A stretch of 64,000 bases of DNA from Mustelus asterias. Its lineage: Eukaryota. Positions within the stretch are counted from its first letter, which is position 1. Every line of letters begins with the position of its first letter. Below, one piece after another: positions 988-61,975 of this stretch. The position numbers and the translations under genes are program-made. Below the pieces are notes generated by a model. That model made no database searches and was not told the DNA's origin. It saw nothing but the letters and a program-made list of their open reading frames with translations. Location of the stretch: contig NC_135823.1 in NCBI RefSeq assembly GCF_964213995.1, forward strand, positions 37,510,001-37,574,000, written 5' to 3'.

Positions 988-1221
988 ATATAAAAGCAAA
1001 TTACTGCGGATGCTGGAATCTGAAACCAACAGAGAAAATGCTGGAAAATCTCAGCAGGTCTGGCAGCATCTGTGAGAAAAGAGCTGACGTTTAGGGTCCA
1101 GATGACCCTTTGTCGAAGCTGCTGCTTTGACAAAGGGTCATCTGGACTCGAAATGGCAGCTCTTTTCTCTCCTTACAGATGCTGCCAGACCTGCTGAGAT
1201 TTTCCAGCATTTTCTCTTTTG
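988..1221. mobile_element. Fold-back Penelope-terminus insertion (family B) with 13-bp TSD
   Basis: Inverted arms at about 1031-1119 and 1124-1217; flanked by CTTACACTTTACT at 975-987 and 1222-1234. Confidence 0.8.
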
Positions 1222-1816
1222 CTTACACTTTACTGTCAAAAGCACATAGTGCAATCTGAGGCAATGATAAAGTTTCATGAGACTCTCATTGTTCCAGGTT
1301 ACATATGAACTAGGAGCAGGAGTAGCAGTAAGCAATTCACTCCTCGAGCCTAGTCCAATACTTGATCAGATCATGGCTTAACCTATTGATTGTGGTTTCT
1401 ACTTTTCTGCCTACCTCCTTTGACACCCGTGTCAGTCAAGAATCAAATTAACTCGGCCTTAAAAACAGTCAACACCCAGCCGTCCACTGCTGTCTGGGGA
1501 AGAGAATTCCATAGACCAACAGCCCTCTGGGAGAAAACAATTCTCTATATCTGTAGTTCAGATTAGGACTAAATCAGAGAAATGGACAATTCAGCGATGT
1601 TTCATATTCTAAAGCAAATTCCAACAGGAAAAGTTCCAGGTGGACTATGCCACAAACCAAATGGTATGGCTTGCCTACCTCCTGCTATTGTGTGCAGACA
1701 TTTTGGATTAATACAAAGTACATAAAAGGGCCAACTGGTCTAAGATGCATTACATCTCTACTAACTGCATCTGCCACCTATCTGCCTGTATTGGTAGTCC
1801 ATCCATGTCTTCCTGC

Positions 1817-61200: not shown

Positions 61201-61975
61201 AAGAAGTTTAACAACACCAGGTTAAAGTCCAACAGGTTTATTTGGTAGCAAAAGCCACACAAGCTTTCAGAGCTCCAAGCCCCTTCTTCAGGTGGTTTCC
61301 CATTCACCTGAAGAAGGGACTTGGAGCTCCGAAAGCTTGTGTGGCCTTCCTTGTGCCACGGATGGAGGTTCACTGCTCCTGAGGACACAATCAGTTCTAA
61401 AACTGGCCACTGGGGATGCCAGAAAGCAGCTGTTTCAGGTAAGTCTGGCTGAGATAGGGATCTCACAGTGTTGGCGCCACGATTGTGTGACGATCCAAAA
61501 TGAAGTGTTTGAAACAAACGTGTGTCAGCCGTGGCTCAGTGGCTGGTGCTCCTGCCTCTGAAGGTCAGAAGGTCATGGGTTCAGGCCTCACTCTGGAGAC
61601 TTGAGCACAAAATCCAGGCTGACCCTCCCTGTGCAAGGAGGGATAAGACCATCCAGTCTCTCAGGTGGATGTAAAAGATCACATGGCACTAGTTCAAAGA
61701 AGGATGAGGACATTCTCCTGTTGTCTTGGTCGATGCCGACTGTCCAGCCAATAAAACAATTCTAAAAACTGGCTGCCACATTTTCTACATTACAACATTG
61801 ACTGCACTTGGTTTAAAGTAGCTTTGGCAGATCCCGCGGTTGTAAAAGGCACTATATAAATGCAAGTTCTTTTCAAATGTATATTAGTCTTTACAGCCTC
61901 TTTCTTTGTTTCAATGTTGTTCTAGGCTTAAAGAGAAAGTGATGTCAACCATGGATCAGATCATGTCAGAGTTCA
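49167..61975 (+). CDS. UNC93-like / MFSD11-like MFS transporter, coding exons 1-8 (3' part outside the window)
   Basis: Exons 49167-49256, 53516-53571, 56455-56562, 57879-57958, 58397-58493, 59850-59908, 60692-60830 and 61926-61975 splice in frame with GT-AG introns. Translation: [37 protein letters not shown]...[31 protein letters not shown]...[22 protein letters not shown]...[24 protein letters not shown]..., matching MFSD11-family motifs. Confidence 0.92.
49330..50570. mobile_element. Rearranged older Penelope element (degenerate GIY-YIG, internal inversion) with a 103-bp Penelope-end insertion at 49531-49633 and a MITE-like insert at about 50121-50238
   Basis: Plus strand [28 protein letters not shown]...LPVAHH; minus strand [30 protein letters not shown] at 49519-49530 and 49634-49645; imperfect TIRs GGCCGGGATTTTAC / GTAAAATTCCAGCT. 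Confidence 0.75.
51784..52365. mobile_element. Nested V-SINEs: a plus-strand copy (about 51965-52272) inserted into a minus-strand copy
   Basis: The minus copy stops at CAGACACAGAGGG (about 51960) and resumes at GCAAACTCCACAC (about 52277). Confidence 0.85.
53516..53571 (+). CDS. MFSD11-like exon 2
   Basis: [26 protein letters not shown](S)|GTATC. Confidence 0.92.
53671..53910 (+). mobile_element. Short solo-LTR-like element
   Basis: TGTGGTG...CACCACA inverted ends and an internal AATAAA at about 53833; TSD ambiguous (TGCCT/CACCT). Confidence 0.5.
54137..54935. repeat. 18-bp minisatellite, about 44 units, in MFSD11-like intron 2
   Basis: Unit GAGAGGCCCAGG(A/G)TCACT. Confidence 0.97.
56455..56562 (+). 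CDS. MFSD11-like exon 3
   Basis: [42 protein letters not shown](S)|GTAGG. Confidence 0.93.
57879..57958 (+). CDS. MFSD11-like exon 4
   Basis: [39 protein letters not shown]. Confidence 0.92.
58397..58493 (+). CDS. MFSD11-like exon 5
   Basis: TCTTTCAG|(V)[31 protein letters not shown](S)|GTAAG. Confidence 0.93.
58830..59470. repeat. Degenerate G-rich tandem repeat (about 25-27-bp unit) in MFSD11-like intron 5
   Basis: Recurrent GGGGTCATGGGGTGTGAGGGTAATG. Confidence 0.85.
59850..59908 (+). CDS. MFSD11-like exon 6
   Basis: [33 protein letters not shown]. Confidence 0.92.
60692..60830 (+). CDS. MFSD11-like exon 7
   Basis: TTCTCAG|(D)[51 protein letters not shown]. Confidence 0.9.
60845..61125 (+). 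mobile_element. V-SINE with alternative tail
   Basis: Same organisation as 4285-4568. Confidence 0.82.
61163..61345. mobile_element. Partial fold-back Penelope-terminus insertion (family A) with TSD
   Basis: Near-identical to the 47650 copy but with a shorter right arm; CTTCCTTGTG at 61153-61162 and 61346-61355. Confidence 0.85.
61524..61875 (+). mobile_element. Deu-domain SINE (SacSINE1-like); further copies at about 3760-4065(-), 15180-15360(-), 28570-28750(+), 41410-41730(+), 53210-53500(+), 60320-60680(+)
   Basis: TCAGCCGTGGCTCAGTGG head, GGGTTCAGGCC B box, GTGGATGTAAAAGATC.CATGGCACTA central domain, tail AAAGGCACTATATAAATGCAAGTTCTTT. Confidence 0.72.
61926..61975 (+). CDS. MFSD11-like exon 8
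   Basis: [31 protein letters not shown]; phase compatible with exon 7. Confidence 0.8.

What the first reader, a model, noticed from the sequence alone, without database searches (positions are those of the whole stretch)
988..61345. Family of minimal hammerhead-ribozyme motifs with covarying stems in Penelope termini
Seen: at least eight copies share the layout helixI-CUGANGA-A-stemII-GAAA-palindromic tetramer-helixI. Sites: 7634-7672(+), 37584-37620(-), 47793-47832(+, mirrored on -), 61305-61341(+, mirrored on -), 1124-1162(+, mirrored on -), 49530-49563(+), and decayed copies at about 5020-5060 and 2615-2655. Stems covary. Helix I is CAC/GUG at 7634 but CCAU/AUGG at 37620. Stem II is GGAGC/GCUCC, GGGGCU/AGCUCC, GGGUC/GACYC or GAGUC/GACUC. 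The tetramer overlapping the end of GAAA is self-complementary in the intact copies (AGCU or ACGU). Established: Penelope-like elements are known to carry minimal type-I hammerheads with a palindromic helix III that can work as dimers. Inference: some copies could still self-cleave, including ones lying in host introns.
Basis: partly seen in the sequence, partly recalled or inferred. Interest (0 to 1): 0.7.

Follow-up and report, generated by a model that had tools for sequence, protein, structure and literature searches.

The report
Shark Penelope retrotransposon minimal hammerheads
The motifs are real copies of the tiny hammerhead RNA already known from Penelope-like jumping genes, present over 100,000 times in this shark genome; most copies in this window are broken or predicted to fold shut, and copy ends suggest the motif likely forms the very start of the element's RNA, which was likely copied mostly uncut.

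Summary
Real, and of a known kind. The sites are ends (pLTRs) of two Neptune-type Penelope-like retroelement families (RT + GIY-YIG) in a 3.68-Gb shark genome. Intact-looking minimal hammerheads: 4 in the window (1 in 50 shuffles), 42 per Mb genome-wide; three exact patterns give 104,482 matches. Covariation holds, but it records a few subfamily-level swaps; inserted copies decay neutrally. Corrections: family B copies at 1127 and 49530 have a U3-A8 core, not CUGANGA (a swap already in print); only 4 of 12 window motifs pass a strict descriptor, three of them locked in 45-70 kcal/mol hairpins; no intronic copy is predicted to cut; 2615 is not a hammerhead. Added: short copies pile up at the ribozyme's 5' edge, often after an extra G (13 of 29), and starts around the cut are twofold enriched in one subfamily (681 vs 339; not seen in a 249-copy sample). 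The ribozyme is likely the first ~40 nt of a capped RNA, mostly copied uncut. The scan noted the same families, U3-A8 swap and end patterns before, on this and other genomes. No cleavage or RNA evidence was obtained.

The parts
7569..7766 (+). Family A short pLTR copy with intact minimal hammerhead (helix I 7635-37/7667-69, core C3 at 7638, helix II GGAGC/GCUCC, AGCU palindrome, predicted cut after C7666), AATAAA and 40-nt tail
   Evidence: hammerhead fold within 1.6-3.3 kcal/mol of the MFE in four contexts
37492..38241 (-). Family A 5'-truncated copy: end of the GIY-YIG ORF, 3' UTR, pLTR with tail, small inverted piece at 38168-38240
   Evidence: 98.4% to full-length element L131 over 681 nt; tblastn 95% to P0001 777-892
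37828..38211 (-). GIY-YIG endonuclease remnant (element-derived part 37831-38178)
   Evidence: Pfam GIY-YIG E 4e-4, below gathering cut-off
37584..37620 (-). Hammerhead with U-A at pair 1.1-2.1 but G12->A (CpG decay); predicted dead
47649..47890 (.). Family A fold-back insertion: two intact hammerheads head to head (C3 at 47796+ and 47779-), tail on the left arm only, ~10-bp direct repeat at the flanks; upstream of the MFSD11 start codon
   Evidence: arms 102 nt, 99% complementary; hammerhead fold costs 63-70 kcal/mol in context; flanks
61161..61348 (.). Family A fold-back insertion in the MFSD11 intron between coding exons 60691-60831 and ~61925; 61308(+) has a helix II mismatch, 61291(-) passes the descriptor but is antisense to the gene
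   Evidence: (58-60 kcal/mol)
990..1227 (.). Family B2 (U3-A8) fold-back insertion, 13-bp direct repeat at the flanks; both motifs (1127+, 1116-) broken
49529..49628 (+). Family B2 short copy with U3-A8 core and ACGU palindrome, starting inside helix I (no helix I); in the first coding intron of MFSD11, sense
5018..5122 (+). Family B1-type decayed copy (A3, G12->A)
2609..2675 (+). Decayed family-B-like pLTR fragment; no hammerhead core left
   Evidence: absent
49370..49440 (-).
11000..36750 (-). Host gene UBFD1 (context; holds no hammerhead copy)
   Evidence: tblastn of P0122, six exons, first exon read by eye at the CpG island
49167..61980 (+). Host gene MFSD11, first eight coding exons (context; continues beyond the window)
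   Evidence: tblastn of P0243/P0244

Best explanation
These are minimal type-I hammerhead motifs in the terminal repeats of two Neptune-type Penelope-like retrotransposon families with more than 100,000 copies in this shark genome; the motif is likely kept by selection on the active master elements, likely forms the first ~40 nt of their capped RNA, and the window's inserted copies are likely inert by-products. Shown: a full-length family A element reads pLTR(hammerhead)-892-aa ORF-pLTR(hammerhead), with the AUG 98 nt behind the predicted cut and the two element ends 59 and 99 nt behind it. Shown: nearly all copies span the predicted cut, short copies begin at helix I, and copies decay neutrally. 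Inferred: reverse transcription primes internally at the two end positions, so copying from the 5' pLTR of the RNA gives the 100-140-bp mini-inserts and copying from the 3' pLTR gives the longer truncated copies; the template is mostly uncut. Inferred: cutting needs a second ribozyme copy (AGCU or ACGU palindrome as intermolecular helix III) or the element's protein, is slow, and would remove the capped 5' end; a few percent of templates may have been cut.
For: Full-length element and ORF with RT, C-x4-C-x2-C linker and GIY-YIG end; family B ORF 33% identical with the same linker. Counts 47,401 + 54,121 + 2,960 in non-overlapping exact patterns, reversed-pattern controls 0, 17, 0. Alignment of 98 copies: 92.7% of cells paired, covariation 0.661 vs 0.297 shuffled and at most 0.115 slid. 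First 100 matches, counted by hand: pair 1.1-2.1 is C-G 31, U-A 64, U-G 2, mismatch 3 and position 17 is never G; family B core U3-A8 68, C3-G8 22, C3-A8 6, U3-G8 1, other 3. Among copies found by protein search, B2 is U3-A8 in 13 of 13 and B1 in 0 of 25. Decay after insertion: core 20 of 884 vs flank 40 of 2,278 positions, P=0.38. 5' ends: 35 of the 101 family A ends within 60 nt of the cut (or downstream of it) fall 33-42 nt upstream, 4 at 43-52 (249 copies); 26 of 37 B2 copies start 2-8 nt before U3; G precedes the start in 13 of 29 non-fold-back junctions, background 22%, P=0.006. Two 3' ends at L131 4024 and 4064; tail on exactly one arm in 81 of 83 head-to-head pairs. PMC11167929 (main text): PLE RT starts internally, uncut RNA is the main substrate, the ribozyme is protein-assisted.
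Against: No cleavage assay and no RNA-end data. Covariation cells count copies, not events: most two-sided changes are between two families or a few subfamilies, so they amount to a handful of independent swaps. Nearest-neighbour energies do not favour the active dimer (-17.9 vs 2 x -9.1 kcal/mol; cofold minimum is an inactive duplex at -26.9). The pile-up at helix I could also come from RT stalling or template switching at a structure or palindrome; 14 of 43 such junctions are fold-backs. The cap-G reading rests on 29 junctions and on recalled knowledge of other retroelements. No full-length family B element was found (longest ORF piece 518 aa), so its AUG position is unknown.
Confidence: 0.72

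Rival explanations
1. Cut RNA is a regular transposition template: the ribozyme cuts efficiently in vivo (dimer or protein-assisted) and sets the 5' end of unit-length or circular RNA, as proposed for PLEs in PMC4209133.
For: In the U-A subfamily, copies that begin in the five positions ending at the cut number 681, against 339 in the five positions upstream (P=4e-27). In the first 100 listed, 18 have a non-A/T base right before the cut product, which by a rough hand correction puts about 40% of the 681 exactly at the cut, 3-4 times the control rate per position.
Against: The excess is small: about 340 matches, roughly 1,100 copies after correcting for the four-mismatch filter, a few percent of the subfamily. 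No downstream control was run. In 249 local copies the 5-nt bin around the cut holds 6, its neighbours 7 and 6; 3 of 89 in the blind sample. Seven of the 100 listed share one fold-back junction. Almost all copies run through the cut site.
Confidence: 0.2
2. The motif no longer needs to cut: the fold is kept as a promoter, protein-binding or packaging signal, or the ribozyme merely rides along.
For: Ribozyme mutants do not affect insertion in vitro for an Anolis PLE (PMC11167929); Naiad PLEs spread without canonical hammerheads (PMC8557442, passages); low activity even as dimers (PMC4209133). The motif coincides with the likely RNA start.
Against: Features that matter only for catalysis are kept across subfamilies: no G at 17 in 100 of 100 while A, C and U all occur; the tertiary 3-8 pair swapped as a pair; the palindrome switched AGCU to ACGU as a pair.
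Confidence: 0.12
3. Inserted copies, including intronic ones, self-cleave host transcripts and affect host genes.
For: 7638(+) is intact and can fold in context; 42 intact motifs per Mb means many lie in introns; 8 of those 42 have an intact same-strand neighbour within 3.8 kb.
Against: No intact, unsequestered, sense-strand intronic copy in this window. Single minimal motifs showed no cleavage in PMC4209133. 18 of 42 intact copies have their own reverse complement upstream. Core positions decay at the neutral rate.
Confidence: 0.07

Closest known systems
Minimal hammerheads (min-HHR) in pLTRs of metazoan Penelope-like elements (Cervera and De la Pena 2014, PMC4209133; abstract, results, discussion read)
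   Same: Type-I topology, short helix I, extra nucleotide between 9 and 10.1 (42 of 42), G10.1-C11.1, palindromic 15.1-16.1 tetramer, location in both pLTRs, mostly solo or inverted truncated copies; reported in fish Neptune, Poseidon and Xena elements.
   Different: Copy number: at least 104,482 exact pattern matches versus about 4,000 and 9,000 in their richest vertebrate genomes (different search methods). Sharks are not named in the parts read; supplements not read.
U3-A8 core variant (Cercyon PLEs of Schistosoma mansoni, PMC4209133; natural U3-A8 hammerheads, PMC3088659 passages)
   Same: C3-G8 replaced by U3-A8 in a whole PLE subfamily; PMC3088659 states such ribozymes are active in vitro.
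   Different: Here in a vertebrate Neptune-type family, with the C3-G8 sister subfamily (B1) in the same genome and linked changes U17->C and U.G->U-A in helix I.
Neptune clade of EN+ PLEs (features as in PMC8557442, passages)
   Same: RT, CX2-5CxxC linker, C-terminal GIY-YIG with CCHH-like residues, partial tandem and inverted 5'-truncated copies, 30-40-bp tail on one end.
   Different: Clade assigned by the linker motif only; no tree was built (Nematis shares the linker).
PAc, Poseidon element of Anolis (Frangieh et al. 2024, PMC11167929; main text read)
   Same: Two element ends a tail-length apart, downstream of the hammerhead; templates mostly uncut.
   Different: In PAc the ORF starts inside the hammerhead and RT starts 111-118 nt into the ORF; here the AUG lies 98 nt behind the cut and the longer end coincides with it.
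Non-LTR retrozymes (bioRxiv 10.64898/2026.07.22.740005, part 1 and passages)
   Same: Type-I hammerheads related to PLE pLTRs; found in one chondrichthyan.
   Different: The window's copies are dispersed, solo or head-to-head, not head-to-tail tandem arrays.

Membership tests
min-HHR of metazoan PLEs | Core C3UGANG8A9 ... G12AAA15.1 ... U16.1 H17 (or U3-A8) | tested here: met
   4 window copies, 42 per Mb; 8 other window motifs deviate
min-HHR of metazoan PLEs | Helices I and II with compensatory changes | tested here: met
   few independent events
min-HHR of metazoan PLEs | Extra nucleotide after A9 and palindromic 15.1-16.1 tetramer | tested here: met
   extra nt 42 of 42, AGCU 40 of 42; ACGU in family B
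min-HHR of metazoan PLEs | Located in both pLTRs of a PLE | tested here: met
   L131 3937 and 6954 around the 892-aa ORF; family B motif behind its ORF
min-HHR of metazoan PLEs | Self-cleavage as a dimer | not testable with these tools
   folding energies inconclusive
Rfam hammerhead families (e.g. Hammerhead_1) | Match to the covariance model | tested here: not met
   no hammerhead family at E<=5 in the window or E<=10 in L131 and L300
EN+ Penelope-like elements | Single ORF with RT and C-terminal GIY-YIG | tested here: met
   P0001 RVT_1 E 5e-10; GIY-YIG E 4e-4 on the window remnant, below cut-off; relatives carry PF01541
EN+ Penelope-like elements | Partial tandem/inverted structure and 30-40-bp tail | tested here: met
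Neptune clade | CX2-5CxxC linker between RT and EN | tested here: met
   CHSNLCKTC in P0001, CNRRRCNTC in P0272
Neptune clade | RT phylogeny with reference Neptune elements | not tested
   no named PLE references at hand
Non-LTR retrozymes | Head-to-tail tandem units each with a hammerhead | tested here: not met
   window copies solo or inverted; 59 of 89 sampled copies have a head-to-head partner

The most novel reading that the evidence does not exclude
The >100,000 insertion ends are a fossil record of PLE RNA processing in the germ line: the hammerhead is the first ~40 nt of the capped RNA, so its cut is a self-decapping switch, and the copies that start exactly at the cut site are in-vivo cleavage products that were reverse-transcribed. 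That would be direct genomic evidence that minimal PLE hammerheads cut in animals, with C3-G8 and U3-A8 sister subfamilies as a natural comparison.
Probability: 0.3. Interest if true: 0.65.

Novelty: new member of a known kind. Interest (0 to 1): 0.33.

Why it matters
The role of PLE hammerheads is still open in print (PMC8557442, PMC11167929). A genome with roughly 150,000 intact-looking copies, young subfamilies and sharp insertion ends lets the question be tested by counting: where RNAs start, how often cut RNA is copied, and which core changes an element can spread with. For the host genes in this window the motifs are likely of no consequence.

Tried and rejected
Rfam scan: only sub-threshold miRNA matches to the fold-back hairpins. 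RNA evidence: no RNA holder listed; contigs of four runs cover the element but cannot show ends, strand or level, so nothing on expression or cleavage is claimed; host splice junctions could not be read from runs and were mapped by homology instead. First family B patterns had a wrong loop length and caught only indel variants (12 and 17 matches). B2 versus B1 age: pairwise identity over 40 nt is the same (0.886 vs 0.889), so 'B2 is younger' is not shown. Host-level selection on inserted cores: rejected. Cut-site peak in local samples: not seen. Dimer energy test: inconclusive. Downstream exons of the putative gene starting near 8170(-): not found, so 'antisense intronic' for 7638 is tentative. 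Lunse et al. 2017 on dimer cleavage was not held and is known only through PMC6765202. Dropped before the covariation count: 5 of 62 family A references (mis-spanned or truncated) and 5 of 45 family B references; one window copy added. Searches for shark reports listed none by title; supplements of PMC4209133, not read, may list shark motifs.

Full report
Observation. All eight sites are present and fall into two repeat families by their downstream sequence. A strict descriptor (CUGANGA, helix II of 4 bp or more, GAAA, UH, helix I of 3 bp or more) finds four window sites, 7638+, 47796+, 47779- and 61291-, against one hit in 50 shuffles. The others deviate: 37616- has G12->A, 61308+ a helix II mismatch, 1127+ has lost U16.1, 1116- two core positions, 49530+ the 5' strand of helix I, 5023+ C3 and G12; 2615 has no core. 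Rfam does not recognise these motifs.

What carries them. The genome G000 has 3.68 Gb; the nearest named relatives of the element's protein and of the host genes are from sharks. The 37616 motif lies behind a GIY-YIG remnant. A search with that remnant led to L131, a full-length element: hammerhead (C3 at 3937), AUG at 4063, 892-aa ORF with RT, a C-x4-C-x2-C linker and GIY-YIG end, second hammerhead at 6954, and an inverted 5'-truncated copy upstream. The window copy is 98.4% identical to it. Family B sits about 370 nt behind a second RT+GIY-YIG ORF, 33% identical to the first and with the same linker; no full-length copy was found. Both fit the Neptune description in PMC8557442 (passages); no tree was built.

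Abundance. In 100 stretches of 10 kb chosen blind at round positions of the large contigs there are 89 family A ends and 42 strict motifs, about 150,000 if extrapolated. Three non-overlapping exact patterns give 47,401, 54,121 and 2,960 matches with reversed-pattern controls of 0, 17 and 0; these patterns do not check every pair. PMC4209133 (results and discussion read) gave about 4,000 and 9,000 for its richest vertebrates, by another method.

Covariation. On 98 aligned copies 92.7% of cells pair; the covariation score is 0.661 against 0.297 in shuffles and at most 0.115 in slid controls; 9 of 11 pairs have two-sided changes, but that count is reached by 67 of 500 shuffles. The signal comes from a few lineage-level swaps. 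Within family A, pair 1.1-2.1 is C-G in 31 and U-A in 64 of the first 100 matches, with 2 wobbles and 3 mismatches, and position 17 is A, C or U but never G (counted by hand). Family B has two subfamilies: among copies found by protein search, B2 is U3-A8 in 13 of 13; B1 is C3-G8 in 16 of 25, C3-A8 in 6 (all after C7, CpG decay) and never U3-A8. The window's 1127 and 49530 copies are B2, so their core is a compensated variant and not CUGANGA. The swap is in print for Schistosoma PLEs (PMC4209133) and described as active in vitro (PMC3088659, passages). After insertion the core mutates like its flank: 20 of 884 versus 40 of 2,278 positions, P=0.38; the CpG at C11.1-G12 is hit in 15 of 68 copies. 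Selection therefore appears to act on master elements and not on inserted copies.

Can the window's copies cut? PMC4209133 found no cleavage by a single minimal motif and low cleavage by dimers; PMC11167929 found cleavage only with the element's protein. In the three fold-back insertions the antisense arm is transcribed first, and the hammerhead fold costs 45-70 kcal/mol in every context of 60 nt or more. UBFD1 (minus strand, 11.0-36.7 kb) holds no copy. In MFSD11 (plus strand, start codon 49167) the sense copies 49530 and 61308 are broken. Only 7638+ is intact and can fold (1.6-3.3 kcal/mol above the minimum), but the next intact same-strand copy is 40 kb away and it appears antisense to a gene starting near 8170, whose further exons I could not find. 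Genome-wide, 18 of 42 intact copies have their own reverse complement upstream and 8 of 42 an intact same-strand neighbour within 3.8 kb. Dimer energies are inconclusive.

What the ends say. DNA contigs show two 3' ends, 59 and 99 nt behind the predicted cut, the second at the AUG; the 40-nt tail is on exactly one arm in 81 of 83 head-to-head pairs and never on both. By analogy with PMC11167929 these are likely the two internal RT start sites. Since copies run from there through the cut site, most templates were uncut. 5' ends pile up at the ribozyme's 5' edge: 17 of 89 blind-sample copies start 30-39 nt upstream of the cut; in 249 copies 35 start at 33-42 and 4 at 43-52; 26 of 37 B2 copies start 2-8 nt before U3. 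A G precedes the start in 13 of 29 non-fold-back junctions, P=0.006, as expected if a cap is copied (recalled from other retroelements, no call). I tested the RNA-start, cap and cut-footprint readings after seeing them in earlier scan notes; the pile-up itself was, run alongside. For the cut footprint, copies of the U-A subfamily starting in the five positions up to the cut number 681, against 339 in the five positions upstream. A rough hand correction of the first 100 puts about 40% exactly at the cut. Against it: no downstream control, recurring fold-back junctions among the hits, and no peak in the 249-copy sample (6 versus 7 and 6). I rate it suggestive, a few percent of copies at most.

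Verdict. Observation partly confirmed; Penelope and minimal-hammerhead reading supported; intronic self-cleavage not supported here. New member of a known kind. Literature searches listed no shark-specific report, but one chondrichthyan is in bioRxiv 10.64898/2026.07.22.740005 (passages), Lunse et al. 2017 was not held, and supplements were not read. Also seen: PMC6765202 and PMC6155905 (passages), PMC2377424 (abstract and one section; internal promoter of Drosophila Penelope). The scan has noted these families many times on this and other genomes.

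Noticed in passing
window 7684-7689 and all family A copies (L131 3982-3987): AATAAA about 17 nt behind the predicted cut, followed by a GU-rich stretch: looks like a poly(A) signal inside the pLTR.
   Followed up: no
window 1160-1178 and 49563-49581 (family B): Pyrimidine tract plus CAG directly behind the hammerhead, and two more further down, resemble 3' splice sites; PLE 5' introns are known.
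   Followed up: no
window 47649-47890, 61161-61348, 990-1227, 49529-49628: Each insertion is flanked by a 9-16-bp direct repeat (target-site duplication, read by eye).
   Followed up: partly
window 7950-8400 (-): CpG island with a probable first exon encoding a signal peptide (MAGPRRLLALLFLAVLSLGVRQ, donor GTGAGT near 8105); gene not identified.
   Followed up: partly
window 49778-50558: Decayed family-B ORF fragments in both orientations in the first coding intron of MFSD11 (70-75% identity).
   Followed up: partly
window 31950-36400: 4.4-kb GC-rich 25/26-bp tandem array in UBFD1 intron 1 next to the promoter; further arrays at 54050-54970, 58700-59500 and 62100-64000.
   Followed up: no
window 39554-41109 (-), 25834-26271 (+), 45771-46748 (-), 1798-2160 (+): LINE (CR1/L2/RTE-like) fragments; RVT_1 hits at 40588-41109 and 46386-46748.
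   Followed up: no
L245:6705 (+): An intact strict hammerhead of a third type (helix II AGGUU/GACCU-like, AUGU tetramer, 5-bp helix I) in the blind sample.
   Followed up: no
one search hits P0020, P0084-P0086, P0098: Host gene models in sharks and turtles include pieces of this PLE ORF (annotation fusions or exonisation).
   Followed up: no
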